Made by a program: the position numbers and the translations under genes
The notes under the pieces: model-generated
What the model was told of the DNA's origin: nothing
Databases searched by the model: none
Seen by the model: the letters and a program-made list of their open reading frames with translations, nothing else
DNA from: Escherichia coli
GTDB taxonomy: Bacteria > Pseudomonadota > Gammaproteobacteria > Enterobacterales > Enterobacteriaceae
Length of the DNA: 64,000 nt
Assembly: GCF_003018235.1 (NCBI RefSeq)
Contig: NZ_CP027437.1
Reading direction: 5' to 3' (one strand)
Shown: positions 13,930 through 45,281 of the stretch, one piece after another
How positions within the stretch are numbered: the first letter of the stretch is position 1
How the letters are laid out: each line of letters starts with the position of its first letter

Positions 13930-14600
13930 TTTGCGCACTCCTGACGTTTAGCAACATATGCGGCTTGCCCTGAACACCGGGCACCACTGTATTGATGCTC
14001 ATTTTCCATAGCCATTCCCTTTTGTTCATTACATCCATGTCAGTCTGAGACAGGCCTGAATCCTGTCAGCAAAGTATAAAACCTTACTTGCCTATGAATA
14101 TCTACTGACTTTTCAGGAAAAAAGTCATGATTTGATAAAAATCATCAAACTCAAAAAAAAACCGCTACTATATTCTGAATATTCCGAATAGTTACGTAGA
14201 TGAAAATACTTGTCACCGCCGCCACTTAATTTCGGTGGGGAATTATTTATTTCCGCATAATCATTCATGCATTATTTGAAACAATTAGTTTGTAAATAAT
14301 ATAAATTGATAACATATCAAATACATCAAAAATACCATTCACAGGCATTATTAATATAGACATCAATATAGCAACATCAAATTCCAATTAGTAATAAGAT
14401 ATGCTTTTAAATTGCATGCAAATAATTTTAAATGAGCGTTTTTTGATACTTTAGAGTGTTTCCCACCCTTTAATATCACTGTGTAGAGTTGATATCACTA
14501 CAACAGAAACATGCATGTCATTTGTTTACTTCTCTTTTTACTACAGAAAAATTTATCTATTTTTCTAAGCATCAGTGAAATACTCATAAAGGTAACTATT

Positions 14601-15431
14601 ATGTCTATGCCATTAAGCAATGCCCTTCAGAGTCAAATTATTACAGATAATCACTTCCTTCATCATCCAAAAGTCGACAATAAGTTAACACGTGAATATG
14701 AATATGCACGCATGGATACGGAAAATATCTATCTTCTGCCTCTTGCTCGTGGCAATAACCATAATTACGATGGAAAAAGCGTTGTCGAAATTAGAAAACT
14801 TAATATTAGCAAACAGTCCTGGCCATTTAATTATGTGACAGAAACATGCAGAGAATTCAATGGTATTACAACAACAGGACGTATGCTCTATCGAAACTTG
14901 AAAATCACCTCAGCTTTAGACGAAATATATGGTGGTATATGTAAAAAGGCGCATGCTGCCACAGAGTTAGCGGAAGGATTACAACTAAATTTATTTATGA
15001 AGAGCCCCTCCGATCCTGTAGAGGACTATACTGTGCATGAAATAACATTAGGCCCTGGCTGCAATGTTCCTGGTTATGCCGGAACCACGATAGGATATAT
15101 TTCAACACTTCCAGTTTCTCAGGCAAAAAGATGGACAAATGAGCAGCCAAGGATTGATATCTATATTGATCAGATAATGACGGTAACAGGGGTAGCAAAT
15201 TCTTCCGGATTCGCCGTTGCCGCATTACTTAATGCTAATATTGATATGGGAAATGACCCAATAATCGGTATAGAAGCCTATCCCGGTACCGCGGAGATCC
15301 ATGCAAAAATGGGGTATAAAGTTATCCCCGGTGATGAAAATGCGCCACTTAAACGTATGACTCTGCAACCGTCATCTCTTCCAGAACTGTTTGAATTAAA
15401 AAATGGTGAATGGAATTATATTGGTAAATAA
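14601..15431 (+). CDS. yjiC: Uncharacterised protein YjiC
   Basis: 276 aa from MSMPLSNALQ. AT-rich gene with a long AT-rich upstream region. Confidence 0.6.
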   Translation: MSMPLSNALQSQIITDNHFLHHPKVDNKLTREYEYARMDTENIYLLPLARGNNHNYDGKSVVEIRKLNISKQSWPFNYVTETCREFNGITTTGRMLYRNLKITSALDEIYGGICKKAHAATELAEGLQLNLFMKSPSDPVEDYTVHEITLGPGCNVPGYAGTTIGYISTLPVSQAKRWTNEQPRIDIYIDQIMTVTGVANSSGFAVAALLNANIDMGNDPIIGIEAYPGTAEIHAKMGYKVIPGDENAPLKRMTLQPSSLPELFELKNGEWNYIGK

Positions 15432-33329: not shown

Positions 33330-34310
33330 ATGAACGCAATAATATCGCCCGATTATTACTATGTTCTTACCGTTGCTGGTCAGTCTAATGCCATGGCGTA
33401 TGGCGAAGGACTGCCATTACCGGACAGGGAAGATGCGCCTCATCCCAGAATTAAACAATTAGCGAGATTTGCGCATACGCATCCCGGAGGCCCGTCATGT
33501 CACTTTAACGACATTATTCCACTGACTCACTGCCCACACGATGTTCAGGATATGCAGGGTTATCACCATCCTCTGGCAACGAATCATCAAACACAGTACG
33601 GCACCGTTGGCCAGGCACTGCATATTGCACGGAAATTACTGCCCTTTATTCCTGATAACGCAGGGGTTCTCATCGTTCCGTGTTGCCGTGGCGGATCGGC
33701 TTTTACCGCGGGCAGCGAAGGGAAATATTCAGAACGGCACGGAGCCAGCCATGATGCTTGTCGTTGGGGAACGGATACTCCGCTATACCAGGATTTAGTC
33801 AGCAGAACGCGAGCCGCACTGGCAAAAAATCCGCAGAACAAATTCCTCGGCGTATGCTGGATGCAAGGCGAATTTGACTTAATGACCAGTGACTACGCGT
33901 CACACCCTCAACACTTTAATCATATGGTTGAAGCCTTTCGTAGGGAGCTAAAACAATACCATTCTCAGCTTAATAATATTACTGACGCACCGTGGTTTTG
34001 CGGCGATACCACCTGGTACTGGAAAGAAAATTTCCCTCATGCGTATGAAGCTATTTATGGCAATTATCAAAATAATGTTTTAGCCAATATTATTTTCGTC
34101 GACTTCCAGCAACAAGGTGCAAGAGGACTGACGAACGCGCCTGATGAAGATCCAGACGATTTAAGCACGGGATATTACGGTTCAGCGTACCGGTCACCGG
34201 AGAACTGGACGACGGCACTGCGAAGCAGTCATTTCAGCGCGGCAGCCCGTCGGGGGATTATTTCTGACAGGTTTGTAGAAGCAATTTTGCAGTTTTGGCG
34301 CGAAAGGTGA
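33330..34310 (+). CDS. nanS: 9-O-acetyl-N-acetylneuraminate esterase
   Basis: 326 aa from MNAIISPDYYYVLTVAGQSNAMAYG (SGNH-like GQSN motif). Confidence 0.8.
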   Translation: MNAIISPDYYYVLTVAGQSNAMAYGEGLPLPDREDAPHPRIKQLARFAHTHPGGPSCHFNDIIPLTHCPHDVQDMQGYHHPLATNHQTQYGTVGQALHIARKLLPFIPDNAGVLIVPCCRGGSAFTAGSEGKYSERHGASHDACRWGTDTPLYQDLVSRTRAALAKNPQNKFLGVCWMQGEFDLMTSDYASHPQHFNHMVEAFRRELKQYHSQLNNITDAPWFCGDTTWYWKENFPHAYEAIYGNYQNNVLANIIFVDFQQQGARGLTNAPDEDPDDLSTGYYGSAYRSPENWTTALRSSHFSAAARRGIISDRFVEAILQFWRER

Positions 34311-34317
34311 GCGTTCA

Positions 34318-34518
34318 TTAATTTGATTTATTTGCATCCATTAGCGCTTTTAACTGCTCCGGCGTAAACGGTGGTTTGCGTCGGTGCAACATCGCATGGC
34401 AATTAGGGCACACAGGAAGCAAATCATTAACTGGATCCAGCTGGTAATCCTCTTTAATGGCTGAAAGCGGCACCAGGTGATGCACATTAAGCAATTTCAG
34501 AACCGCATGCTCATACAT
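34318..34518 (-). pseudogene. HNH-motif remnant ORF (66 aa), probably the C-terminal fragment of a degraded gene
   Basis: CPNCHAMLH HNH-like motif. Short ORF directly downstream of the 202-aa ORF on the same strand. Confidence 0.4.
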
Positions 34519-34577
34519 ATTTCCCCCTAAGTTTGCTCACTGCCTTTAATTTATGTCACAGGCAATGTAATTCACCT

Positions 34578-34649
34578 GAAGCTCATCTTGAATCTGTCCT
34601 TCTACTTAGTCATTACCCTACTGGCACAACCGACCTCAAGATGAGCTTC
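34578..34649. repeat. Perfect 14-bp inverted repeat GAAGCTCATCTTGA / TCAAGATGAGCTTC separated by 44 bp
   Basis: Direct reading of the sequence. Lies between the 202-aa ORF stop and the HNH remnant. Confidence 0.7.
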
Positions 34650-34655
34650 TTACTT

Positions 34656-35264
34656 TTAACGATGTATCAGAACAATCTTGCGCCGGGAGAATAGCGTTTC
34701 CGCAGACAGCTGGAATTTATATTCCGCGGCCTTCAGCTTTCGCGATTTAAGCATTTTCATCGTGATACCCCTTATTTTCCCTGACTCAACCTGTCTCTTG
34801 ATTTCGCCGGTGCTCAGCATGAGCTGCTTTTGCAAAATCGACAGCAGGCTGACCTGAAACGAACGGGAAATCCTGACGCTAACCTTGACCCATTTGCCGG
34901 GAGAAAGGCTGGCTAACCACTGCTCCTGAATGCGAAAATCAGGCCGACCCGATAGCTCTGCGTTGTTCCGCTTCAGCATCGCGATATCACAGGAAAAATG
35001 TTGAACCGTGGCTGCATCGTTGCTCATCAGCCGGTTATGAAGTTCGCGGTCAATTTTGCTGACGTGCAGGCGCGAAAATAGGGAGATATTCCAGGTGTAA
35101 TCACAGTGTGTGCATTTATAGATACTCCACACGTCCAGCACCTTCTTTTGCGAATTAATCCGAAATGCACCTGATGGCGTGAAGTCCCGTTTAATGTTGC
35201 ATGAAGGGCATCGCTTCGCAATGCGCTGATACCCCACGGGCGTGACGGTCCATGTAACTTTCAT
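34656..35264 (-). CDS. Hypothetical Cys-rich (zinc-finger-like) protein
   Basis: 202-aa ORF with CPSCN...CTHCDYTW motifs. No confident family assignment. Confidence 0.45.
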   Translation of the reverse strand: MKVTWTVTPVGYQRIAKRCPSCNIKRDFTPSGAFRINSQKKVLDVWSIYKCTHCDYTWNISLFSRLHVSKIDRELHNRLMSNDAATVQHFSCDIAMLKRNNAELSGRPDFRIQEQWLASLSPGKWVKVSVRISRSFQVSLLSILQKQLMLSTGEIKRQVESGKIRGITMKMLKSRKLKAAEYKFQLSAETLFSRRKIVLIHR

Positions 35265-35559
35265 AACCTACCTTTTTTAACCCATACAAAACCGGATCCG
35301 TACTGAACGGACCATGGATGTTTATGTATGAAAAATATTTAAGAGATATTTTTCAGAGGGTTAAAAAAAGATTTCCAACTATGCAATCCTGTCGGTGAGC
35401 AAAGAGATATAGCGAGACTATCAAAACGGCAATTATTGGGTATATGAGTTCAATCAATATTCATGATGGTTATGGCTTGTTCTATTGATCTGACACATTA
35501 AACACGGCGCATTAATTTTGTATGTTTTATGAACAACCCAACAACAAAAGGAGCGCGAT

Positions 35560-35811
35560 ATGACACAGCACGAACGGTTTTGTCAGGCCTGCGGAATGCC
35601 GATGTCCGCACCTGATGCGCAGGGGAGTAGCGATAAATACTGTGCATACTGCAGCGATAGCAACGGCAATCTTAAACCCTGGGAAGAGGCGGTATCAGGC
35701 TTGGCCAGCTTCCTTGATTCCTGGCAAAAAGTCGGTCCAGAAGAAGCACAGAAGCGTGCAAAACGTTATCTGACGGCAATGCCTGCCTGGGCTCATAAAG
35801 CGGACGAGTGA
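35560..35811 (+). CDS. Small zinc-ribbon protein (hypothetical)
   Basis: 83-aa ORF with CQACGMP...CAYCSD (CxxC-N-CxxC). Confidence 0.45.
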   Translation: MTQHERFCQACGMPMSAPDAQGSSDKYCAYCSDSNGNLKPWEEAVSGLASFLDSWQKVGPEEAQKRAKRYLTAMPAWAHKADE

Positions 35812-35875
35812 ATAACAAAGTCAGGGTGATTTAGGCAGTCTATCTTCACTCCGCTGATTCCATTAAGGAGAGCCG

Positions 35876-36268
35876 ATGTTTTCTCACATTATGCTTGGAA
35901 CCAACAACCTGCCACGCGCCATTGCATTCTACGATCCGTTGATGGATATGCTGGGGTATCCCCGCGGCGGCAGGAAGAGGAGATCGCATGGTGGGGCGTT
36001 TTCAACGGTAATAACACTACGGCACTGGGTATCAGTAGGCCATTTGATAAACAGGTTGCCACGACCCGAAATGGAGTGATGGTCGCCCTGATTGCGCGTT
36101 CTGCCGAACACATCCAGCAAGTTTCATGTGCTAGCTTTAAATCACGGTGGCACTGACGAGGGAGCACCTGGCCAGCGTCCGCATTACGGCGAAGGGTTCT
36201 ACAGCGCTTACGTCAGAGACACCGATGGCAACAAGCTGGCTTACGTTTATTACACCGCACAATCCTGA
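35876..36268 (+). pseudogene. VOC/glyoxalase-family gene disrupted by frameshifts
   Basis: The N-terminal part MFSHIMLGTNNLPRAIAFYDPLMDMLGYPR is in one frame. The middle (EEEIAWWGVFNGNNTTALGISRPFDKQVATTRNGVMVALIARSAEHIQQV) and C-terminal (HVLALNHGGTDEGAPGQRPHYGEGFYSAYVRDTDGNKLAYVYYTAQS) parts are recovered only by shifting frame. Confidence 0.6.
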
Positions 36269-36512
36269 GAACGATAAAGCGGGGGCCTCAGCGCCCCCAC
36301 CTGAAACTAAACCGATCCCGCAGATGTCAATGAGCGTTGAACGAGTTGATAAATGCCGAGATGTCTGACTGTTTTTACGCCAGAACTCCATGGTGTGACA
36401 ACCATACACATACTCCCTTCTTGACACCTTTAAACCATTTAACCGCATGCCTCTGTCTGCCCTGCAGGGACGGCTGATGCCTGTGTGTTGTCTGGCGGTA
36501 AGGAACAATACT

Positions 36513-36674
36513 ATGTACGCAAAATCCTTTATCGCTCTCGACGGGAATGGTCGTCTGACCGGTGCCCGTACTGCGCAGACCGCCCCTTACGATCGTTATA
36601 CCTGCCACCTCTGCGGTAGCGTGCTGCAATACCATCCTGAATACATCACCGAACGCCCGTGCTTTGAACAGTAA
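36513..36674 (+). CDS. Small hypothetical protein (53 aa)
   Basis: ATG preceded by AGGA. Contains CHLCGS. No family recognised. Confidence 0.3.
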   Translation: MYAKSFIALDGNGRLTGARTAQTAPYDRYTCHLCGSVLQYHPEYITERPCFEQ

Positions 36675-37266
36675 CCAACACACTGACAGAGGGCGGCGAA
36701 AATGCTTTATGCAAATCTTGATGCAAAGGCAGCCAGACGAATTCGTAAGTTACGCTTTTACGTGGCAGATACTCAAAGCAGACTGGCATTGTAGCGACGA
36801 TTGCCACGGTGAACGCTATTGTATGGCATGTAGTACCTGAGACTTCAGCCGCCCAGTAGATATAGCATCATGAAAAAACTGAAATGCTTTCTTGCCAACA
36901 ACTCACTGAGCTAGTATGCCTCCACCGATGTAACAATTAGAGCAAGCGTCAAAGTGCGAAACTGCCCTCACGTAGCTGCAAGTTAACACCAGGAAATCCT
37001 GGTTCAAACACGACCAGCTCTATGTTAGCGGCAAGCAATCGTTGAACTAAACGCATATGCAGCCGGAGATGAAAGTTAGGAAAAAAGCAGAGGCTGATAA
37101 GAATTATGCACGTTGAGCTGGGATCGTAATACCCCACTTAAAATGTACAAGGGGAGTAGTCTAATGATGTTAAATACGAACCTTCAGTATTGTTCATTCA
37201 CCAATTTTCCCATATTCTCTCATCATTAATATTCTCTGCCGAATTTTATAGGGCTAACTCGCTGAA

Positions 37267-37473
37267 ATGAATGACAAAGCTTTAACCTTGAAAGATGTGG
37301 TGGCTTACTTAAAGTTGGCAGAAAAAACAGCGTATAGGTTGACTAGCGAAGGCAAATTGCCGGGATTTAAGGTTGAAGGCTCATGACGCTTCAAACGAGA
37401 GGATTTAGATATGTGGATTGAAGGTCAGAAGACTCAAAGCTACCCGAGTATCACAAAATCCAATCGTGGTTGA
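37267..37473 (+). pseudogene. AlpA/excisionase-type helix-turn-helix regulator gene interrupted by an in-frame TGA
   Basis: MNDKALTLKDVVAYLKLAEKTAYRLTSEGKLPGFKVEGS-stop-RFKREDLDMWIEGQ. The stop at 37384-37386 sits where this family has a conserved Trp (TGG). Confidence 0.6.
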
Positions 37474-37666
37474 TCAAGTGGATAAACATGAAAAGTCGGT
37501 AGCCCTCAAAGGCCACTTGCCACATGCAGTGAAGCAAGCCGTTGTGCAAGCTCTACTGAAAGAAGGTGATATCGCCCGAACGTTGCTCAAGGATCCACAA
37601 GTTATGGCAAGTTATGTTGAGCTGATTTTCGACATGATGAAGCAGAATAAAAATATGAATATCTAA
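37418..37666 (+). CDS. Hypothetical small ORF (TTG start), overlapping the HTH remnant out of frame
   Basis: 82-aa ORF from the track. Non-ATG start and no recognisable motifs. Confidence 0.25.
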   Translation: MKVRRLKATRVSQNPIVVDQVDKHEKSVALKGHLPHAVKQAVVQALLKEGDIARTLLKDPQVMASYVELIFDMMKQNKNMNI

Positions 37667-37708: not shown

Positions 37709-40246
37709 ATGATAAATGACCATGAAGAACTAGAACTTGCTAAAGCTCAGGCAAAAGAAATATGGAAGATCCTTGATTATGTTCGAGGAGCATCACCTAT
37801 ATCTAATTATCGCTCATTAGCGTATTCAATCTTCTTCGTACGCTATCTTCAATCCAATACAGGTCAGCATTTTGAGGCAGAAAGGTTCGACTCTTTTAAT
37901 GTCATCGCCCAGTATTCCTACGATCTTGTAAACTATGCCGTTCAACTTGGATTGATTCATAGCGACGTATCTAAATTCTTAATTTATTATTTAGAAAACA
38001 CACTCCGTTCATTTGTCAATATTGATGAGTCTTTTGTTCGTTATGCAATTAGAGATGGTCTACTCAATAAAACCCCTGCAATAGCGTCGCTTTCTTTATC
38101 AGAACTGGATTTACTTTTTGCCGAGAATGAAGGTAAGTCAGGAGGTGAGTTTTATACCCCTAGAGACGTCAACTTATTGGTTAAAATATTAGGATTGAGT
38201 TATCAACCAAAGTCAATATGTGACCCATTTGCAGGTGCTGGAAACACAGCATTTCCTTTTGCCAATACTGGTATTGAAAAAGTTAGGATTGATACTCAAG
38301 AAATTAATAGAGATGCTTACTTTAAACTAGTAATAAGTAGAGTCATCAGGAAAATAGAAGGTCGAGACTATTTCGGCGATTCCCTATCACAACCATTATA
38401 TCAAGAAAATAAATATGATCTGATAGTTTCTTTCCCACCTTTTGGCATGAAAATTCCTAAAGCCACTCGAAATAATATTTACTATAAAACAAGTAATAAG
38501 TGGCTGGATATTACTGAAATCTTGCCAGAAAGTAGAAGTGATTGGTTTATAACATTATCAATGCTTCCAGCCCTTTCTGAGGGGGGTAAGATACTAGTAG
38601 GTATGTCACTTGGGGCTTTGACAAGAGCAGGCTCTGAGGCAAAGGTTCGTGAGTATTTAGTCTCTCGCGGAATTATCGAACAAGTAATTCTTTTACCTAA
38701 AAATATTTATTACTCTACGGCTATCTCAACTGTACTTCTTGTCCTCAACTCAGGAACAAGTAACATAAATAACAGAAGTATTAAATTTGTAGATGCTTCA
38801 CTGTTTTACGAGCCTGCCCGTGGTCGAAACACCCTCACAACAAAAAATATAAATGAGATCGTAGAGGCTTGTCATAAAGATGGCCGATTTAGTATTAGTT
38901 CATCTCATACCCAAATAGCAAACAGAGACTTTAATTTAGATCCGTCTCTTTATGTACGTAAAGATCTCAAAATCAGTGAGGTTTCTTTAAAAAATTTTAG
39001 AGGATACTCTGACTTTAAAGTTTCGATACATCCTTCTTTAAATGTATTGGTTGGTGAGAACGGCGTCGGGAAAACTTCGATATTAGAAGCATTAGCATGT
39101 GGCCTTGGTCCTTTCCTTACTGCTATGCCTGATGCTAAAGGAAAACTGATAAAAAAATCAGATATCCATATAAGTTCAAAAGGAATCGCAAATTATGCTC
39201 GAATATCGATTGAAACAACATCAAGTTTAAGTTGGGATCTTGTGGCAAAGGGGGTTGATGTTTCCGAGCCCCCTAAGATAGGAACATCAGCATTAACTAG
39301 CTACGCTACTCATCTTGTAGATAGTCAGTCTGAATATCCACTCATTGCTTATTATGGGACTAACCGTGCTCTTACTTCTACCAGTTCTAAAGTTGCAATA
39401 AATCCATTCGAGAAAGAAAATCGTGGGGAAGGTTATGACTTTGCTTTAGATGCTAAAGTTAACTACGGCATCTTAAAGAACTGGTTTTCAAAAATAGAGG
39501 TTGATGAGCTTCGAAAACGTGATGAACTAAAAGACCATAAATTCATTCATCCGGCTAAGAGACTTGTTTCAGAGGCTGTTTACCAGATTGTTGATCGAGC
39601 TACATGCTTGGAGTTCGACAAAAATAGTAACGATGTTATGGTTCATTGGAAAAATGAGCAGGGAGAGTGCGTAAAGCTTACATTGGAACAACTAAGTGAA
39701 GGGTATAGAAATATGGTATCCCTGACCATTGACCTAGTGAGGCGTGCTTATTTACTTAATCCTACCAAACCGAAACCGCTAACAGTTAATGGGATCGTTT
39801 TAATTGATGAAATTGAACTTCACTTGCACCCTAGATGGCAGCAAAAGATTTTAAATGATCTTACTAAGCTGTTTAAGAATATTCAGTTTATTGTCACGAC
39901 ACATAGTCCTCAAGTCTTAACAACAATCAAAGCCGATTGTATCCGTATTGTTTCCGTCAATGCTAACGAAGCAAAATTAGTGACAGGAACTACTACTTAC
40001 GGTTCTGAAAGCTCAAGAATGTTGGAAGATGTTTTAGGTGGTAACAATCGCGCCCAACATCTTGATATTGTTAAAAAACTAAACCGTTATACAGAGTTAG
40101 TAGAGGCCGACAAATGGGATACCGATGAGGCATTAGAACTCAAAAAAGAGTTATATAAATGGGGTGGTCAGACAGAAGACGAGCTTCAAAAATTAGAAAC
40201 TGATATTCGAATTCGCGAGTTCGAGCGTGGCAATGAAAAAGATTAA
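37709..40246 (+). CDS. Fusion protein: N-terminal HsdM-like N6-adenine DNA methyltransferase domain plus C-terminal ABC/AAA_21-type ATPase domain (PtuA-like)
   Basis: 845-aa ORF. Methyltransferase motifs GGEFYTPRDV, ICDPFAGAGNTAF (motif I) and DLIVSFPPFG (motif IV region). ATPase motifs: Walker A VLVGENGVGKTS, signature-like LSEGYRNMVSL, Walker B VLIDEIELHLHP, H-loop FIVTTHSP. Confidence 0.75.
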   Translation: MINDHEELELAKAQAKEIWKILDYVRGASPISNYRSLAYSIFFVRYLQSNTGQHFEAERFDSFNVIAQYSYDLVNYAVQLGLIHSDVSKFLIYYLENTLRSFVNIDESFVRYAIRDGLLNKTPAIASLSLSELDLLFAENEGKSGGEFYTPRDVNLLVKILGLSYQPKSICDPFAGAGNTAFPFANTGIEKVRIDTQEINRDAYFKLVISRVIRKIEGRDYFGDSLSQPLYQENKYDLIVSFPPFGMKIPKATRNNIYYKTSNKWLDITEILPESRSDWFITLSMLPALSEGGKILVGMSLGALTRAGSEAKVREYLVSRGIIEQVILLPKNIYYSTAISTVLLVLNSGTSNINNRSIKFVDASLFYEPARGRNTLTTKNINEIVEACHKDGRFSISSSHTQIANRDFNLDPSLYVRKDLKISEVSLKNFRGYSDFKVSIHPSLNVLVGENGVGKTSILEALACGLGPFLTAMPDAKGKLIKKSDIHISSKGIANYARISIETTSSLSWDLVAKGVDVSEPPKIGTSALTSYATHLVDSQSEYPLIAYYGTNRALTSTSSKVAINPFEKENRGEGYDFALDAKVNYGILKNWFSKIEVDELRKRDELKDHKFIHPAKRLVSEAVYQIVDRATCLEFDKNSNDVMVHWKNEQGECVKLTLEQLSEGYRNMVSLTIDLVRRAYLLNPTKPKPLTVNGIVLIDEIELHLHPRWQQKILNDLTKLFKNIQFIVTTHSPQVLTTIKADCIRIVSVNANEAKLVTGTTTYGSESSRMLEDVLGGNNRAQHLDIVKKLNRYTELVEADKWDTDEALELKKELYKWGGQTEDELQKLETDIRIREFERGNEKD

Positions 40247-41021
40247 TAAGCTAGATGAGCCAAATCGGCTTGGTGTGTTCAAGGCTACTCATCCTAATGC
40301 TTTGTGGGAGAGGGATAAAAACTCAATTGAAGAGGCTTTCCGTTGTTGCATTGCCAGATATCAAGAAACTCTACAACAATTACGTACGGACCAAGGTAAT
40401 TTATGTGCATATTGTGAACAGGATTTAATGTCTGGAACTAATGGGGCATTAGATGACTGCCGTATTGAGCATTTTCATCCGAAATCTAAACGTGAACAGG
40501 GAGAACCTAATTGGGCTTTGGAATGGAGCAATTTGTTAGTTGTTTGCTGTGGCGGAAATCAAAGTAAAGTTGTTAATCCTGGGCAAAGATTTGATGCTGA
40601 TCCCAAAAATTACTCTTGCGATGTACCAAAGAGTGACAAAATTTTAGATACCATTATATTAAATCCACTTAATTTACCTGAATTAAATATCTGGAAGTTT
40701 CATCGTTCTTCGGGGCAAATTTCCGTAAATGAAGATTCCTGTTTAGAATTTGGTATAAGTGTTGAAATGGCACACCAAACAATTAAAGAATTGAATTTAA
40801 ATTCCCCTCGATTAATTAGATTTCGAAAGGCTATTCTAAATAATCTCAACATTTTAATAACAGAAAGGCTGAAGAAGGGACAAACGGTAGAGCAAGCTGT
40901 TAGATTTATTGCCATATCACTCTTTAGAAAAAATGGAGCAGGTGATTGGCCCTCTTTTTTTAGTGCAACACGATATTATTTAGGTCAGCAGGCTGAGCTT
41001 GTTTTAGCCCAACCTATTTAA
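40233..41021 (+). CDS. HNH endonuclease (PtuB/TIGR02646-like), translationally coupled to the upstream fusion gene
   Basis: 262 aa from MKKINKLDEP. HNH motifs CAYCE, CRIEHFHPKS, NLLVVCCGGN. Its start overlaps the 3' end of the upstream gene by 14 nt. Confidence 0.7.
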   Translation: MKKINKLDEPNRLGVFKATHPNALWERDKNSIEEAFRCCIARYQETLQQLRTDQGNLCAYCEQDLMSGTNGALDDCRIEHFHPKSKREQGEPNWALEWSNLLVVCCGGNQSKVVNPGQRFDADPKNYSCDVPKSDKILDTIILNPLNLPELNIWKFHRSSGQISVNEDSCLEFGISVEMAHQTIKELNLNSPRLIRFRKAILNNLNILITERLKKGQTVEQAVRFIAISLFRKNGAGDWPSFFSATRYYLGQQAELVLAQPI

Positions 41022-41040
41022 CATACTTTCAACTAGTTAG

Positions 41041-41063
41041 AGAGGCTGCTTTTGGCAGCCTCT
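41041..41063. terminator. Hairpin between convergent genes (AGAGGCTGC-TTTTG-GCAGCCTCT), likely bidirectional terminator
   Basis: Perfect 9-bp stem with a 5-nt loop in the 60-bp gap between the 3' ends of the convergent genes. Confidence 0.55.
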
Positions 41064-41081
41064 TGCAGAGTGCAGAATCGA

Positions 41082-42515
41082 CTACAGGGGCGATGCTAGC
41101 TCAGAGAACCAAGCGTGAACTGATCTGTAAAATGTGCTGATTGACCAAAACTCACTGCATGCAGCAACTAACAGAATGACCACTAAGAGGATCACTACAG
41201 TAGAAGTCATTCTTTCCACACGGCAGTATGATCCCATCGCATCTTTTACAGGTTGTCTAGCCAGTTCCTGATAATCCAGCTCATCCAGAAATCCGTATAA
41301 TTTAGTTCTCCAGGTGGTTCTAACTCTTTCAAGTAATGAAATTGTTTGCCTATTAATATAGACAGACATTCCATAGGAAATAACTATATAAACCGCGATA
41401 GCACAAAAAACCAAAGCGTAAATATTTTGCAAACCAACTGATTTTACTGCATCCAGACTGTAGCGAATAACCAAGACACTAATTACAAGAGCCATATCTT
41501 TCCATAAGGAAGAGGACAAATCTCGGGATTGCTGAATGATCTTTTGTGTATCTTCAGCCAGCGTTTTCCGCAAATCACCCAAGGATTTCATAGTATCTTT
41601 ACCACCAGTCCTGATATGGGCCTTATACATTAACCGTGCAGACTCCAAAGCTGATGAGAGTCGAAGCATCACTCCCTCACAAAAGTTCAGGTCTGAAGGC
41701 CACTCTCTAGCCAGCTCGCTGGACAAAAACGTATGTTTCAGCTCAGTTTCATTCCCCTCTAGAAAAATCCACTTTGCCGCTTCCTGGATAATATCAAAAG
41801 CAGGTAACGCTGCCGTCTCATCGCCGAATGCTATTTTTCTGGGAGGCTTTCCCGCAAGCCCCACCATCATTTCGTCAGCAAAAAAAAGTTCATTTGCAAA
41901 ACATTTCAGCAACTCTCGGCATCCTAGCAATTTCCATATCTTGATTGCTTCATCAGTCTTCTCACTACAAGTTTCAAGTATCCAAGGGGCAATGGCATCT
42001 GGAGGAAGAAAAGTTGTTGAATAACATTTGATGATACTTTTTGTTACTGAAGGCTTAGTGATAGCTGTTGCATCACCAGCACTCACCGGCTGTATCTCCT
42101 TCCATGGATGCACATACCAACTTATTGTCTGAAAGCCTTCAGTAATAAACAGCCCATAAATATGTTTGTACCGACAGAGTTTGCTATCTTGAAGTAAAAA
42201 AGTGCGCCATCCTTCTAAGGTAAAAAGCCTCAGTATCCCCGGAATTTCATTATAAGTGATGGTAATGTAGTGCTTCTGCCCTGGGACCCCCTCTCTCGGA
42301 TGAATAACATCTCTGCTCTCATCGATAAAAACGATCTTGAGATCTTCCGCATGTACATCCACTATTTCTCCCCATAAATCAAGGGATTCACTATCCATTG
42401 TGGCGGAAATAAAAAGCTTATGGATAGACACCTGCTGGTCCTCTGTGATCACAAGGTCAGATAAATGTCGTGAGTGGCATATAGCCTTACCGATTTTTTC
42501 CAATATCGATATCAT
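41082..42515 (-). CDS. Hypothetical protein with two C-terminal transmembrane helices (membrane-anchored), second gene of a two-gene cassette
   Basis: 477-aa ORF. Hydrophobic stretches LVISVLVIRYSL...IYALVFCAIAVYIVISYGMSVYI and TSTVVILLVVILLVAACSEFW. No recognisable catalytic motif. Confidence 0.5.
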   Translation of the reverse strand: MISILEKIGKAICHSRHLSDLVITEDQQVSIHKLFISATMDSESLDLWGEIVDVHAEDLKIVFIDESRDVIHPREGVPGQKHYITITYNEIPGILRLFTLEGWRTFLLQDSKLCRYKHIYGLFITEGFQTISWYVHPWKEIQPVSAGDATAITKPSVTKSIIKCYSTTFLPPDAIAPWILETCSEKTDEAIKIWKLLGCRELLKCFANELFFADEMMVGLAGKPPRKIAFGDETAALPAFDIIQEAAKWIFLEGNETELKHTFLSSELAREWPSDLNFCEGVMLRLSSALESARLMYKAHIRTGGKDTMKSLGDLRKTLAEDTQKIIQQSRDLSSSLWKDMALVISVLVIRYSLDAVKSVGLQNIYALVFCAIAVYIVISYGMSVYINRQTISLLERVRTTWRTKLYGFLDELDYQELARQPVKDAMGSYCRVERMTSTVVILLVVILLVAACSEFWSISTFYRSVHAWFSELASPL

Positions 42516-43548
42516 CTGTTACCAATCCTGCAGTCACAATTACAATTCGTTTTCGCCCGTCTTCCATATTTTCTACTTCTGGTGCATTGTCTTCATCGTA
42601 GATAATGATTACATCTTCCAATGTTTCCAGTTTTCTCTTCCGGGGCTTCTGAATGTTATCGGGAATGATGCGGAAAGATTCACCTGAAATTCCTAAATCC
42701 TTTATTTTACGAAAAAAATACTTAACCAGAGGGTGTTCTTCCTCCAAAGGACCAAAAATCTGGGTCAACAATGGCAGTGCTTCATCAGTATTAAAATCCT
42801 GTTCGCCATGGCGTAAAGTTTCATAAATTTTGTTTACTCCGCTGCGCTTGATCTCTTCAGGTAGTAAGTTTCGATGCTTTTTATATACATCTTTTAATAC
42901 AGTAACTAGCTTATCGCTGAGCTGAGTTGGGTCATTGACGCGCTTAACCTGTAGAAATCGTTCAAAATAGACAGAGATGTTAGTACGTTTGCTGCGATCT
43001 CGTACGACAACTAATCCGCCCGGCAAATCTTCATTCAGCCGTACCAGTGCGATTTTCTGCATGGCTTCGGCTTTTTTAACGAAACTTTCGCGAAAGCGTT
43101 CGAGTTTAGGTACCTGAAACTCATCTCCTTCAACATCCAGCACATAACGGACTACATCTTCATTGTCATACTTAATCAACGCATACAGTTTCTCATCGTT
43201 GAGTGTATGAAGTTCAAAAAGGAAAAAAACGCCCATACTGGCATTCTTGGTATGGTGGTGAGACTGAAAATCGCTTGCCAATAAGGAGGATTGCTCAGTA
43301 AAGCAGCCGATATCGGTGTCTGCATGTTCCCTGATGATCCTCAGGATTCGCTCTGTATTTGACAACTCCTTAAAATGAAACATATTGCCACTAACTGCAG
43401 ATTTGATACGTTCCAGAAAGAAATCAACATGCTCCGGAGGGGAAATTTCGCTGAGTAAAACAGGGACTTCCAACTCACCGCCAACCACATGAAAAATCAT
43501 CCTTTTTATTGATAATGCATTGATTTCTTCATCCGTTAAAAAACTCAT
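42487..43548 (-). CDS. Hypothetical cytoplasmic protein (353 aa), first gene of the two-gene cassette; weak NdpA/YejK-like resemblance at most
   Basis: ATG start confirmed. Overlaps the downstream ORF by 29 nt. Acidic C-terminus. No confident domain assignment. Confidence 0.5.
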   Translation of the reverse strand: MSFLTDEEINALSIKRMIFHVVGGELEVPVLLSEISPPEHVDFFLERIKSAVSGNMFHFKELSNTERILRIIREHADTDIGCFTEQSSLLASDFQSHHHTKNASMGVFFLFELHTLNDEKLYALIKYDNEDVVRYVLDVEGDEFQVPKLERFRESFVKKAEAMQKIALVRLNEDLPGGLVVVRDRSKRTNISVYFERFLQVKRVNDPTQLSDKLVTVLKDVYKKHRNLLPEEIKRSGVNKIYETLRHGEQDFNTDEALPLLTQIFGPLEEEHPLVKYFFRKIKDLGISGESFRIIPDNIQKPRKRKLETLEDVIIIYDEDNAPEVENMEDGRKRIVIVTAGLVTDDIDIGKNR

Positions 43549-43744
43549 TTTTATTTCTCAATATAGTGTTTATATTTACTACCGTGAGCCATCTTACCTA
43601 AGCGTAGAACGTGGCGGAAAACACGATAACATTATTGCATAGCTTACGGCGTAACTTATCCTCGCCCCAGACAGAATAAACGTCAAAATAAAATAATGAA
43701 AATATGATCGAGACAGCATTAGCTGCCCCGCTTTCTTAGACTTT

Positions 43745-44998
43745 TTACATTATTAGGGCAAAATCAAACGGACTCACCCCCTTCTCCCGATTCGCATCCA
43801 GATAATTTGCCCACCACTGCAGCATCAACCTACGCTCCCCAAGATGTTCCGCCTTATGGATGTATGCCGCCCGCACAGAGCTACGCTCCTGATGGCTCAT
43901 CTGCCGCTCCACTGCATTCCTCGACCACAATCCTGATTCAATAAGTGAACTACAGGCCATCGTCCTGAAACCATGCCCACAGACTTCCGTTTTGGTGTCA
44001 TAGCCCATAACTCGCAAAGCCTTGTTCACCGTATTCTCACTCATCGGCTTATGCGGATCGTGATCGCCCACAAAAATCAGCTCTCGATTTCCATTCATGC
44101 TTTTGATCTTTTCCAAAATAGCTAAGGCCTGCCGCGATAAGGGTACAAGATGGGGAGTTCGCATCTTCGAACCACGCTGAGAATGTTTAACACCGTCCAA
44201 CGGTTCACGCTCACCGGGGATCGTCCACATGGCCGTTTCAAAATCCACTTCTGACCAACGGGCAAAGCGCAGTTCGCTTGAACGGATGAAAACTAACAAA
44301 GTGAGTTCGACAGCCAGTCGAGTTAACGGCCTGCCGGAGTAATGATCAATGCGGTGAAGTAATTCAGGTATGCGGTTAAGCTCCAGAGCCGCACGATGCT
44401 GTCTTTTAGCAGTAGCAACCGCACCGGTAATCTCTTGCGCGGGGTTGTAGTCGATTAAGCCGCTCTGAACGGCAAAGCGCATAATCGCGGTAGTTCGCTG
44501 CTGTAAACGGGCGGCGACTTCAAGACGTCCGGATGACTCCACCGCTTTAATGGGTACAAGAAGATCCCGAGTCTTAAGCTCTGCAATGTTCCGCTTACCG
44601 ATAGCAGCAAAGAGATTATCTTCTAGGCTTTTCAATACACGAGCACTATGCGATGCAGACCACTTCTGATTACTGGCATGCCAGTCTCTGACGACCACTT
44701 CAAACGTTATCGCCTCTTGCTCCTGTTCTACCTTAACCGCTTTCTTGTTTTCACTGGGATCGACGCCGTTCGCTAAAAGCTTACGCGCTTCGTCTCGCCG
44801 CGATCGAGCATCAGCTAACGAAACTTCAGGATACTTCCCTAGCGCCAGCATCTTCTCTTTACCACCGAAACGATAACGAAGCCGCCAGTATTTGGAGCCG
44901 TTAGGGTGAACCAGCAAAACCATGCCTTCACCATCAGTAAGTTTATAGGCTTTTGCTTCAGGCTTTGCCGAACGAACCTTCACATCACTCAGAGCCAT
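43745..44998 (-). CDS. int: P4-family tyrosine integrase
   Basis: 417 aa from MALSDVKVRSAKPEAKAYKLTDGEGMVLLVHPNGSKYWRLRYRFGGKEKMLALGKYP (P4-type integrase N-terminus). Catalytic region HGFRTMA...Y. Lies directly beside the tRNA-Leu 3' end. Confidence 0.9.
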   Translation of the reverse strand: MALSDVKVRSAKPEAKAYKLTDGEGMVLLVHPNGSKYWRLRYRFGGKEKMLALGKYPEVSLADARSRRDEARKLLANGVDPSENKKAVKVEQEQEAITFEVVVRDWHASNQKWSASHSARVLKSLEDNLFAAIGKRNIAELKTRDLLVPIKAVESSGRLEVAARLQQRTTAIMRFAVQSGLIDYNPAQEITGAVATAKRQHRAALELNRIPELLHRIDHYSGRPLTRLAVELTLLVFIRSSELRFARWSEVDFETAMWTIPGEREPLDGVKHSQRGSKMRTPHLVPLSRQALAILEKIKSMNGNRELIFVGDHDPHKPMSENTVNKALRVMGYDTKTEVCGHGFRTMACSSLIESGLWSRNAVERQMSHQERSSVRAAYIHKAEHLGERRLMLQWWANYLDANREKGVSPFDFALIM

Positions 44999-45196
44999 GA
45001 TGAATATCCTTTCAAGGGTTCTGTGTGGGTACAAACATTATCGAACCGGGATATACCCGCAGTTGTACCCGCATCAGTAAGTTGATGTAGATTGAATCAG
45101 GTTGACTTAGGTTGAGTGAAAAAGCGAGGAAAGCCTTGCGGATACTGGATTTCAGGCATAAAAAAAGACCTCAGTTGAGGTCTATTTACATACTTA

Positions 45197-45281
45197 TGGT
45201 GCCGAAGGCCGGACTCGAACCGGCACGTATTTCTACGGTTGATTTTGAATCAACTGCGTCTACCGATTTCGCCACTTCGGC
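45197..45281 (-). tRNA. leuX: tRNA-Leu (anticodon CAA)
   Basis: The minus-strand sequence reads GCCGAAGTGGCGAAATCGGTAGACGCAGTTGATTCAAAATCAACCGTAGAAATACGTGCCGGTTCGAGTCCGGCCTTCGGCACCA (85 nt), with a CAA anticodon loop and a CCA end. Confidence 0.9.

What the first reader, a model, noticed from the sequence alone, without database searches (positions are those of the whole stretch)
41082..43548. Convergent overlapping two-gene cassette of unknown function with a membrane-anchored component
A 353-aa cytoplasmic protein and a 477-aa protein with two C-terminal transmembrane helices overlap by 29 nt, so they are probably co-translated. Neither shows a recognisable catalytic motif. They lie between the integrase and the methyltransferase-ATPase/HNH module, facing it across a shared hairpin terminator. 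A soluble partner paired with a membrane-anchored one in an island-cargo position is reminiscent of abortive-infection or toxin-type modules. It could be a second, independent defence system, or an accessory to the first.
Basis: inference. Interest (0 to 1): 0.75.

Follow-up and report, generated by a model that had tools for sequence, protein, structure and literature searches.

The report
PANGU-like nucleoid-sensor membrane-effector defence pair
The two overlapping genes encode a distant relative of the bacterial chromosome-binding protein YejK and a membrane-anchored partner, an architecture that two 2026 studies showed to be an anti-phage "suicide" system, so this is most likely a second, independent phage-defence module in the island and not a new kind of system.

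Summary
ORF-A (42487-43548, minus strand, 353 aa) and ORF-B (41082-42515, minus strand, 477 aa) overlap by 29 nt. They lie between a P4-type integrase at tRNA-Leu (leuX) and a methylase-PtuA/PtuB (Septu) module. ORF-B matches no Pfam, NCBIfam, PADLOC or PDB entry. It belongs to a large family: 639 clusters at 50% identity, all named members in alpha-, beta- and gammaproteobacteria. It has a confidently modelled N-terminal alpha/beta domain with no solved structural relative, and two to three C-terminal hydrophobic helices. In every locus examined an ORF-A homologue lies directly upstream with overlapping reading frames. The neighbours change each time: CBASS/AbiJ, Hachiman, an ars operon, Rac-like prophage, a temperate phage, plasmids. 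The pair is therefore autonomous and not a Septu accessory. The architecture matches type II PANGU (bioRxiv, April 2026): a NAP sensor released when phage degrades the chromosome activates a membrane effector, causing abortive infection. It also matches DefensePredictor DS-1, but ORF-B is not homologous to DS-1B. Sequence identity with the tested PANGU operon could not be checked. Verdict: probable new member of a known kind, moderate interest.

The parts
42487..43548 (-). ORF-A (pagA-like): 353-aa soluble NA37/YejK-family nucleoid-associated protein, the proposed DNA-bound sensor
   Evidence: ORF. Pfam NA37 E = 1.5e-12 over the full length. RefSeq 'nucleoid-associated protein' WP_097336606.1. 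No TM segment, pI 5.5. No BLASTP similarity to K-12 YejK. 115 homologues, nearly all with a PF04245 hit.
41082..42515 (-). ORF-B (pagB-like): 477-aa membrane-anchored protein, the proposed effector
   Evidence: ORF. No Pfam, NCBIfam, PADLOC, PHROG or PDB sequence hit. 93 homologues. 639 clusters at 50% identity by profile search. AF2 model pLDDT 84.4.
42487..42515 (-). 29-nt overlap of the ORF-A stop region with the ORF-B start (likely translational coupling)
   Evidence: Overlap is conserved in relatives, although its length varies: 29 nt (Citrobacter and E. coli variants), 35 nt (Bosea, Methylobacterium, Methylocaldum), 14 nt (L015), 4 nt (L017), 11 nt (phage vB_ThpS-P1).
41691..42515 (-). 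ORF-B residues 1-275: cytoplasmic alpha/beta N-terminal domain, candidate NAP-binding ('DMK'-like) domain
41496..41744 (-). ORF-B residues 258-340: most conserved stretch of the family (HTFLSxELAREW ... ARLLYKAHLRSGSKDTLKALADLRKTLADDVQK), the juxtamembrane helices
   Evidence: Alignment of 38 homologues. Helices 257-269, 278-303 and 306-356 in the model.
41133..41495 (-). ORF-B residues 341-461: hydrophobic helices (341-357 moderate; about 364-387 and 438-461 strong) with a conserved, K/R-rich 50-residue loop between the last two
41040..41064 (.). 11-bp GC-rich hairpin between the convergent stop codons of PtuB (41021) and ORF-B (41082); possible bidirectional terminator without a U-tract
   Evidence: dG -20.7 kcal/mol, z -2.0. 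Not called by the terminator scan.
43709..43730 (-). Terminator-like hairpin plus T-run downstream of the integrase gene, implying that ORF-A/B have their own promoter within 43549-43708
   Evidence: An equivalent hairpin follows int in the Citrobacter and E. coli relatives. No sigma-70 consensus was found on the minus strand.
43745..45034 (-). Context: P4-type tyrosine integrase, with tRNA-Leu(CAA) leuX at 45197-45281
   Evidence: It is 69% identical to the integrase that precedes the ORF-A/B pair in Citrobacter and Enterobacter islands.
37709..41021 (+). Context, not part of the system: N6-methylase-PtuA fusion (845 aa) plus PtuB HNH (264 aa), a Septu-type module
   Evidence: PADLOC PtuA E = 4.7e-106 (residues 420-843) and MTase_I E = 1e-30 (residues 137-418). 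PtuB E = 1.9e-100. NCBIfam results.

Best explanation
The cassette is an autonomous two-gene anti-phage abortive-infection system of the 'nucleoid-associated-protein sensor plus membrane effector' kind. This is the type II PANGU architecture, Pag2A/Pag2B.

Proposed mechanism:
1. ORF-A, a diverged NA37/YejK-family protein, sits on chromosomal DNA in the healthy cell. The family assignment is shown. DNA binding is inferred from the family and from Pag1A/Pag2A in the preprint.
2. A phage such as T4 degrades the host chromosome. ORF-A loses its DNA substrate and becomes free. This step is inferred, by analogy with Pag2A-GFP relocalisation and denA escape mutants.
3. Free ORF-A binds the cytoplasmic N-terminal domain of ORF-B at the inner membrane. 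This is inferred. It is supported here only by strict gene pairing, overlapping reading frames and correlated divergence.
4. Binding switches the conserved juxtamembrane helices and the two to three hydrophobic helices into a membrane-damaging state, probably oligomeric permeabilisation with loss of membrane potential. The cell stops growing before phage progeny are made. This step is my inference. The effector chemistry of Pag2B is also unknown in the literature.

The pair is mobile cargo. It travels next to P4-type integrases, in lambdoid and Mu-like prophages and on plasmids. It is functionally independent of the adjacent Septu module.
For: - ORF-A is a full-length NA37 match.
- ORF-B has an N-terminal soluble domain and C-terminal TM helices. 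This is the layout described for Pag2B.
- The pairing is conserved in every locus inspected, across three proteobacterial classes and down to 28% (A) and about 25% (B) identity.
- At least 25 more contigs carry both genes. A-B distance correlation is r = 0.84, Mantel 0/2000.
- Neighbours are repeatedly defence genes or prophage accessory-gene (moron) slots: Septu here; AbiJ plus CD-NTase/patatin CBASS; HamA/helicase Hachiman plus a reverse transcriptase; between Q and hok in Rac-like prophages of 30/5426 E. coli genomes; beside the CI repressor of temperate phage vB_ThpS-P1; 8 IMG/VR contigs; 10 plasmids.
- Type II PANGU from E. coli needs both genes, is non-toxic without phage, protects against T4 by abortive infection, is escaped by denA (EndoII) mutants, and its Pag2A leaves the nucleoid on infection.
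- A second, non-homologous NA37+TM pair, DS-1, was also validated as a defence.
- DefensePredictor scores the Rac-prophage ORF-A homologue (60% identical) as a 'predicted novel defense gene', log-odds 8.4.
Against: - Nothing was tested on this locus.
- The sequences of the tested PANGU operons are not available, so homology of ORF-B to Pag2B is unproven.
- At least one other E. coli NA37+TM family exists, DS-1, and it is unrelated to ORF-B (hhalign probability 0.3%).
- The preprint describes type II (Cluster 2) as inter-phylum. Every named member of the ORF-B family is from Pseudomonadota.
- The ORF-B N-domain is only mildly acidic (net -9 over 340 residues, pI 5.65), and its surface electrostatics could not be computed. 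The 'DNA-mimic' property is therefore not shown.
- ORF-A is so diverged that BLASTP finds no similarity to K-12 YejK.
Confidence: 0.72

Rival explanations
1. It is a maintenance or housekeeping device of mobile elements, not an immune system. A xenogeneic NAP would bind the island or prophage DNA, and a membrane partner would tether or silence that DNA. This would be nucleoid-membrane anchoring or control of element gene expression.
For: ORF-A belongs to a DNA-architecture family. ORF-B has no toxic domain. The pair always rides on integrase islands, prophages or plasmids.
Against: The element backbones are unrelated to one another: P4-type integrase islands, lambdoid, Mu-like, plasmids. A backbone-specific maintenance role is therefore unlikely. 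The pair occupies the accessory-gene (moron) or cargo slots where defence genes sit. Architecture-equivalent operons were shown to protect against phage, with both genes required.
Confidence: 0.08
2. It is a superinfection-exclusion system. The membrane protein blocks DNA entry or an early membrane step of incoming phage, and the NAP-like protein acts as a regulator or chaperone. There is no cell suicide.
For: It is prophage-borne in several hosts and lies near sieB in Rac-like prophages. ORF-B is an inner-membrane protein.
Against: For type II PANGU the trigger is intracellular chromosome degradation (denA escape mutants), and cultures stop growing at high multiplicity of infection. This indicates abortive infection, not exclusion. 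Strict co-evolution with a cytoplasmic DNA-binding-family protein is not expected for an entry block.
Confidence: 0.07
3. It is a classical type II toxin-antitoxin or addiction module. ORF-B would be a membrane toxin held in check by ORF-A, stabilising the island.
For: It is a two-gene overlapping operon on mobile DNA. A membrane protein could be toxic. A hok/gef gene lies next to the Rac-prophage copy.
Against: Both proteins are large (353 and 477 aa). The upstream gene is a NAP-family protein, not a small labile antitoxin. In type II PANGU neither gene alone nor both together were toxic. There are no TA family hits.
Confidence: 0.05
4. It is an accessory component of the adjacent methylase-PtuA/PtuB (Septu-type) system, together forming one four-gene system.
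For: The two modules are immediately adjacent, convergent, and share an intergenic hairpin. The exact four-gene arrangement recurs in the two E. coli genomes that carry this allele.
Against: None of the other loci with ORF-A/B homologues has PtuA or PtuB nearby. The two E. coli genomes are 99.8-100% identical here, so they represent one event. Convergent transcription argues against one operon.
Confidence: 0.03

Closest known systems
Type II PANGU (Pag2A NAP sensor + Pag2B transmembrane effector), Li et al., bioRxiv 10.64898/2026.04.06.716658 (April 2026)
   Same: It is a bicistronic operon with the NAP gene first. The NAP is a YejK/NA37-family protein of at least 300 aa. The partner has an N-terminal soluble domain and a C-terminal TM domain. 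It is found in E. coli, linked to known defence genes (Hachiman is named in the preprint and seen here in L005), and is spread by horizontal transfer.
   Different: The ORF-B N-domain is only mildly acidic by composition. The preprint calls Cluster 2 inter-phylum, whereas the ORF-B family as seen here is confined to Pseudomonadota. This allele sits in a leuX island beside Septu and is rare (2/5426 E. coli genomes). It has not been tested experimentally.
DefensePredictor DS-1 (working id D390; WP_000355468.1 + WP_000150292.1), DeWeirdt et al., Science 2026 (PMC13092281)
   Same: It is an E. coli two-gene unit: an NA37 protein followed by a protein with an N-terminal soluble part and a C-terminal TM region (269-404). 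It is validated as anti-phage. It is prophage cargo beside the Q antiterminator, the same slot as the Rac-prophage copy of the ORF-A/B family.
   Different: There is no homology. DS-1B against the ORF-B profile gives hhalign probability 0.3%. DS-1A against ORF-A gives no BLASTP hit. DS-1A carries an N-terminal zinc ribbon. The DS-1 genes do not overlap (2-nt gap). In the part of Table S7 that was read (part 1 of 9), DS-1 has rows for Bas1, Bas26, Bas3, T3, T5 and T7 and none for T4. DS-1B relatives are essentially limited to Enterobacterales. DS-1 is present in 106/5426 E. coli genomes.
Type I PANGU (Pag1A NAP + Pag1B GRel toxSAS)
   Same: It uses the same sensor family and the same proposed logic: the NAP is released from a degraded chromosome and then binds and activates its partner.
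   Different: The effector is a soluble alarmone synthetase with a C-terminal DNA-mimic domain. ORF-B has no toxSYNTH domain and is membrane-anchored.
E. coli YejK (NdpA), the housekeeping 37-kDa nucleoid-associated protein
   Same: It is in the same Pfam family, NA37, and is of similar length (335 against 353 aa).
   Different: There is no detectable pairwise similarity. yejK is a standalone core gene. ORF-A is island or prophage cargo, always coupled to ORF-B.
RexAB of phage lambda (soluble sensor RexA + membrane ion-channel RexB)
   Same: It follows a similar logic: a prophage-encoded two-gene abortive-infection system with a cytoplasmic sensor and a membrane effector that depolarises the cell (my own knowledge of the system).
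   Different: There is no sequence relationship, since no PADLOC family of any kind is hit even at E <= 10. RexB has four TM helices and no large cytoplasmic domain. The sensed signal differs.

Membership tests
Type II PANGU (Pag2A/Pag2B; 'Cluster 2' of Li et al. 2026) | The operon encodes a YejK-like NAP (IPR007358/PF04245 profile, E < 1e-10, at least 300 aa), with the adjacent gene less than 40 bp away | tested here: met
   Pfam NA37 E = 1.5e-12, 353 aa. The genes overlap by 29 nt. Criteria taken. The E-value is close to their cut-off and was obtained with Pfam's profile, not theirs.
Type II PANGU (Pag2A/Pag2B; 'Cluster 2' of Li et al. 2026) | The partner protein has a C-terminal transmembrane domain and an N-terminal soluble domain | tested here: met
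   Hydrophobic helices at about 364-387 and 438-461, with 341-357 weaker. Confident alpha/beta N-domain.
Type II PANGU (Pag2A/Pag2B; 'Cluster 2' of Li et al. 2026) | The N-terminal domain is an acidic, DNA-mimicking ('DMK') surface that binds the NAP with nanomolar affinity | tested here: inconclusive
   By composition it is only mildly acidic: net -9, pI 5.65; family median pI 5.3. Binding cannot be tested in silico here.
Type II PANGU (Pag2A/Pag2B; 'Cluster 2' of Li et al. 2026) | Sequence homology to the Pag2B of PANGU-Ecu, or a match to the authors' Cluster 2 HMM | not testable with these tools
   No supplementary files or accessions are held for the preprint. Indirect point: the only other E. 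coli NA37+TM family found, DS-1, shows a phage range in the part of its table that was read (rows for T5, T3, T7 and Bas1, none for T4) that differs from PANGU-Ecu (T4 yes, T1/T5 no).
Type II PANGU (Pag2A/Pag2B; 'Cluster 2' of Li et al. 2026) | Located within 10 kb of known defence genes | tested here: met
   PtuA/PtuB lie 60 nt away. Relatives lie next to CBASS/AbiJ and Hachiman.
Type II PANGU (Pag2A/Pag2B; 'Cluster 2' of Li et al. 2026) | Inter-phylum distribution | tested here: not met
   All named homologues are Pseudomonadota. Most of the 639 clusters carry no taxonomy, so the test is weak.
Type II PANGU (Pag2A/Pag2B; 'Cluster 2' of Li et al. 2026) | Both genes are required for protection against T4; escape by denA mutations; the NAP leaves the nucleoid on infection | not testable with these tools
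   Experimental criteria.
DefensePredictor DS-1 | Homology to DS-1A (WP_000355468.1) and DS-1B (WP_000150292.1) | tested here: not met
   hhalign probability 0.3% for DS-1B against the ORF-B family profile. No BLASTP alignment between DS-1A and ORF-A.
NA37 / YejK (NdpA) family (for ORF-A) | Full-length match to the PF04245 profile | tested here: met
   Residues 20-337 match model positions 3-317 of 325, E = 1.5e-12. ORF-A is not an orthologue of yejK.
Septu (PtuAB), as an extra component | Conserved co-occurrence with PtuA/PtuB | tested here: not met
   No PtuA or PtuB in any of the other loci with the pair.
Any system in PADLOC-DB v2.0.0 (including RexAB, Kiwa, PDC candidates) | A profile hit to a component | tested here: not met
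   Zero families for either protein, even at E <= 10.

The most novel reading that the evidence does not exclude
The ORF-A/ORF-B family may not be the Pag2A/Pag2B lineage tested in the PANGU preprint. It could be a third, experimentally untouched NA37-coupled membrane effector lineage, alongside DS-1 and the real Pag2B. It would be widespread in alpha-, beta- and gammaproteobacteria. Its N-terminal domain has a fold with no solved relative. Its conserved juxtamembrane helices and two to three hydrophobic helices would form a NAP-gated membrane-disrupting device. In that case NAP-based 'chromosome integrity' sensing would have been joined to membrane effectors independently at least three times. 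This family would then be the largest handle on how such an effector kills the cell.
Probability: 0.3. Interest if true: 0.55.

Novelty: new member of a known kind. Interest (0 to 1): 0.4.

Why it matters
If the reading is right, this leuX island carries two stacked defence systems: a methylase-fused Septu and a NAP-sensor/membrane-effector pair. The ORF-B family then becomes useful for an open question. The PANGU preprint states that how Pag2A engages and activates Pag2B 'remains to be determined'. The material assembled here gives concrete targets for mutagenesis and structural work:
- a family of at least 639 clusters at 50% identity;
- a confident model;
- an invariant HTFLSxELAREW...YKAH...DLRK motif next to the membrane;
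- a conserved third hydrophobic helix.

The analysis also shows that E. coli holds at least two unrelated NA37+membrane pairs, both placed beside the Q antiterminator in lambdoid prophages. This supports modular, repeated recruitment of nucleoid proteins as infection sensors. In practical terms, the pair is absent from PADLOC v2 and is annotated as 'hypothetical protein' plus 'nucleoid-associated protein', so current defence annotation pipelines of that vintage miss it.

Tried and rejected
- PADLOC, NCBIfam and PHROGs searches: no hit for ORF-B. For ORF-A, only an unnamed PHROG (phrog_1974, E = 1e-4).
- PDB sequence search: nothing for either protein, even at E <= 1 and E <= 10. If the Pag1A-Pag1B cryo-EM structure has been deposited, it is not detectably similar to ORF-A by phmmer.
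- Foldseek against AFDB50: only uncharacterised or 'transmembrane' proteobacterial proteins.
- Search for an att direct repeat of the tRNA-Leu 3' end to delimit the island: none within the window.
- Promoter scan upstream of ORF-A: no minus-strand sigma-70 consensus. Alignment of the int/ORF-A spacer with relatives shows no clearly conserved element beyond the int terminator.
- Attempt to obtain PANGU-Ecu sequences or accessions: no supplements held, and no accession, residue range or size for Pag2A/B in the text.
- Test of whether DS-1 is the same family: negative.
- Search for this locus's own RefSeq protein accessions in the DefensePredictor tables: not found, but several of the tables were truncated when stored.
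- The 'accessory to Septu' and 'classical TA' readings were considered and rejected for the reasons given under the rival explanations.
Full report
**Setting**

The window is Escherichia coli chromosome around tRNA-Leu(CAA) leuX (45197-45281, minus strand). Core genes ahr, yjgR, lptG, lptF and pepA lie on one side. A low-GC island (GC 0.36-0.44 against about 0.52) lies on the other. The 2.7-kb segment with the finding is 100% and 99.8% identical to only two of 5,426 complete E. coli genomes. In one of them RefSeq annotates, in order: tRNA-Leu, tyrosine integrase, 'nucleoid-associated protein', 'hypothetical protein', 'retron system putative HNH endonuclease', 'N-6 DNA methylase'.

**Check of the observation**

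ORF-A (42487-43548, minus strand, 353 aa) and ORF-B (41082-42515, minus strand, 477 aa) are present and overlap by 29 nt.

RefSeq starts ORF-B 28 codons later in one strain. The long form is nevertheless correct:
- The N-terminal 28 residues are conserved in 38 homologues (MSILxKIxxAIEASR..., E25 nearly invariant).
- The gene callers behind the protein database give 477 aa (P0001).
- The Rac-prophage paralogue is annotated with the same 29-nt overlap.

ORF-A has no hydrophobic segment. ORF-B has two strong ones, about 364-387 and 438-461. It also has a conserved, weaker one at 341-357 whose family-mean hydropathy (1.60) equals that of TM1 (1.61).

The 60-nt gap to the convergent PtuB gene holds an 11-bp GC-rich hairpin at 41040-41064 (dG -20.7 kcal/mol, z = -2.0). 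It has no U-tract, and the terminator scan did not call it. A terminator-like hairpin follows the integrase gene (43730-43709), so the pair probably has its own promoter.

**What the proteins are**

ORF-A is a full-length match to Pfam NA37, the YejK/NdpA 37-kDa nucleoid-associated protein family (E = 1.5e-12). It is very far from the housekeeping YejK of K-12, with no BLASTP alignment.

ORF-B matches nothing in Pfam, NCBIfam, PADLOC, PHROGs or the PDB sequences. AlphaFold2 with a 38-sequence alignment gives a confident model (pLDDT 84.4):
- an alpha/beta N-terminal domain, residues 1 to about 230;
- three helices, 233-303;
- three very long helices (306-356, 363-406, 412-456) that contain the hydrophobic segments.

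The most conserved stretch of the family is the juxtamembrane region, residues 258-340 (HTFLSxELAREW ... ARLLYKAHLRSGSKDTLKALADLRKTLADDVQK). By composition the N-terminal part is mildly acidic: net -9, pI 5.65, family median pI 5.3.

**The pair is a conserved, mobile unit**

ORF-B has 93 homologues in the 90%-clustered database. A profile search finds 639 clusters at 50% identity (372 with E <= 1e-30), almost all 440-530 aa long. ORF-A has 115 homologues whose source contigs mirror those of ORF-B. At least 25 contigs carry both.

In every locus I opened, an ORF-A homologue lies immediately upstream with overlapping frames:

| Locus | Host or element | Overlap |
|---|---|---|
| L002 | Bosea | 35 nt |
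| L003 | Methylocaldum (upstream gene split into two ORFs) | 35 nt |
| L005 | Methylobacterium | 35 nt |
| L006-L009 | Citrobacter / Enterobacter | 29 nt |
| L011, L012 | E. coli | 29 nt |
| L013 | Rac-like prophage | 29 nt |
| L015 | distant member; its ORF-A homologue is still 28% identical, E = 2e-20 | 14 nt |
| L017 | distant member | 4 nt |
| L018 | temperate Thiobacimonas phage vB_ThpS-P1 | 11 nt |

Pairwise distances of the two proteins across 26 pairs correlate (r = 0.84, Mantel 0/2000). ORF-B evolves faster (mean p-distance 0.58 against 0.42).

The neighbours are different every time:
- Septu here.
- AbiJ plus CD-NTase/patatin CBASS in Bosea.
- HamA plus helicase (Hachiman) and a reverse transcriptase in Methylobacterium.
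- An ars operon or an SrfB island behind a 69%-identical P4-type integrase in enterobacteria.
- The slot between the Q antiterminator and hok/ninG in Rac-like prophages of 30/5426 E. coli genomes.
- Beside the CI repressor in a Mu-like phage.
- Ten plasmids and eight IMG/VR viral contigs.

This pattern rules out a role as a Septu accessory. It is the typical footprint of a self-contained defence or accessory (moron) cassette.

**What is known about such pairs**

[quoted passage not shown] It defines PANGU as two-gene operons of a YejK-like NAP (PagA) plus an effector.
- Type I pairs the NAP with a GRel toxSAS.
- Type II pairs it with a transmembrane protein, Pag2B. [quoted passage not shown] The isolated N-domain binds Pag2A with a KD of 19 nM.

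- It protects against T4 by 3-4 logs.
- It needs both genes and is not toxic without phage.
- It behaves as abortive infection.
- It is escaped by T4 denA (endonuclease II) mutants that no longer degrade the host chromosome.

How Pag2B is activated, and what it does, is stated to be unknown. The authors' bioinformatic criteria are met by ORF-A/B: NA37 profile E < 1e-10, at least 300 aa, neighbour within 40 bp, within 10 kb of a known defence gene (compare).

**A complication that I tested**

DefensePredictor (Science 2026, PMC13092281) validated a system containing 'a YejK nucleoid-associated domain'. Its supplementary tables identify it as DS-1 (working id D390). It consists of WP_000355468.1 (391 aa, zinc ribbon plus NA37) followed by WP_000150292.1 (404 aa, TM region 269-404). 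This is also an E. coli NA37+TM pair, so it could equally be the 'type II PANGU' that was tested.

I compared it with the present pair:
- DS-1B does not match the ORF-B family profile (hhalign probability 0.3%).
- DS-1A gives no BLASTP alignment with ORF-A.
- DS-1 sits between Q and the holin in lambdoid prophages. It occurs in 106/5426 complete E. coli genomes, and its relatives are essentially limited to Enterobacterales.
- In the part of Table S7 that I read (part 1 of 9), its rows are Bas1 (7.6 logs), Bas26, Bas3, T3, T5 and T7, with no T4 row. PANGU-Ecu protects against T4, and T1 and T5 are resistant to it.

That difference suggests DS-1 is not PANGU-Ecu, which leaves the ORF-A/B family as the best E. 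coli candidate for Pag2A/Pag2B. I put the probability that the ORF-B family is the Pag2B family at roughly two in three.

One observation points the other way. The preprint calls Cluster 2 inter-phylum, whereas every named ORF-B homologue is from Pseudomonadota.

Independently, DefensePredictor's genome-wide table lists the Rac-prophage ORF-A homologue (WP_001586997.1, 60% identical to ORF-A) as a 'predicted novel defense gene' with log-odds 8.4.

**Mechanism proposed**

Shown here:
- ORF-A is an NA37-family protein.
- ORF-B is membrane-anchored, with a large cytoplasmic-type N-domain.
- The two genes are obligately linked, overlapping and co-diverging.
- The unit is mobile and sits in defence or accessory (moron) positions.

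Inferred from the PANGU work:
- ORF-A coats chromosomal DNA.
- Phage-induced chromosome degradation frees it.
- Free ORF-A binds the N-domain of ORF-B.

My own inference:
- Binding re-arranges the invariant juxtamembrane helices and the two to three hydrophobic helices into an oligomeric, membrane-permeabilising state that collapses the membrane potential and aborts infection.

**Verdict**

The feature is best filed as a probable new (divergent, untested) member of the recently described NAP-sensor/membrane-effector class. There is a real chance, about 0.3, that it is a separate third lineage of that class. It is not categorically new. The residual interest lies in the unknown effector mechanism and in the size and conservation of the ORF-B family.

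Noticed in passing
window 37709-41021 (+): The neighbouring system is an unusual Septu. An 845-aa protein fuses an HsdM-like N6-adenine methylase (residues about 137-418; PADLOC MTase_I E = 1e-30, TIGR00497 E = 2e-35) to a full PtuA ATPase (residues 420-843, E = 5e-106). It is followed by PtuB (E = 2e-100), which overlaps it by 20 nt. Both score below the NCBIfam equivalog cut-offs (329 against 500 bits; 127 against 150 bits).
   Followed up: partly
window 37418-37666 (+): An 82-aa ORF just upstream of the methylase-PtuA gene has a weak hit to the C-terminus of the PADLOC candidate PDC-S15 (E = 4e-6, positions 307-376 of 380). RefSeq annotates a shorter hypothetical protein here and a 39-aa HTH regulator just upstream. 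It may be a regulator of the Septu module.
   Followed up: no
L001 12083-13432 (NZ_CP028192.1, locus tag C7A99_RS24830) = window 41082-42431: RefSeq's start for ORF-B in strain CFSAN018748 is 28 codons too short. It removes a family-conserved N-terminus and hides the 29-nt overlap with the upstream gene.
   Followed up: yes
L018 545-1597 (KT381864.1, gene vBThpSP1_052): In Thiobacimonas phage vB_ThpS-P1 the ORF-A homologue is annotated as 281 aa, but the ORF extends to 350 aa from an upstream ATG. The NA37-like/TM pair sits at the genome end beside the CI repressor and is annotated only as hypothetical proteins.
   Followed up: partly
L013 4880-7343 and L027 6001-8393: Two unrelated NA37+membrane-protein pairs occupy the same slot in lambdoid E. 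coli prophages. One is the ORF-A/B family; the other is DefensePredictor DS-1. Both sit immediately next to the Q antiterminator gene and are transcribed against it. This suggests a prophage hotspot into which NAP-based systems are exchanged.
   Followed up: partly
L003 6982-8035 and L004 465-1518 (Methylocaldum): The gene upstream of the ORF-B homologue is split into two overlapping ORFs of 177 and 193 aa, with no Pfam hit on record. The same split appears in two independent assemblies. It is probably a frameshifted ORF-A homologue, either a pseudogene or programmed.
   Followed up: no
window 43745-45034 versus L006 5508-6761, L008, L012: The trio integrase / ORF-A / ORF-B is conserved as a block (integrase 69% identical). 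It is inserted at different chromosomal sites in Citrobacter, Enterobacter and E. coli, with different downstream cargo (SrfB island, ars operon, Septu). The pair therefore occupies the integrase-proximal cargo position of a family of P4-type-integrase islands.
   Followed up: partly
window about 34300-37400: The far end of the leuX island contains short broken ORFs where CFSAN018748 has an ISEc31 (IS3-family) element, plus a DUF1062 gene (34656-35264). No direct repeat of the tRNA-Leu 3' end was found in the window, so the island boundary is degraded or lies elsewhere.
   Followed up: partly
window 14000-15000, 56000-57000, 59000-61000: Three further low-GC stretches (GC 0.33-0.36 against about 0.52), which may be other horizontally acquired segments. 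Not examined.
   Followed up: no
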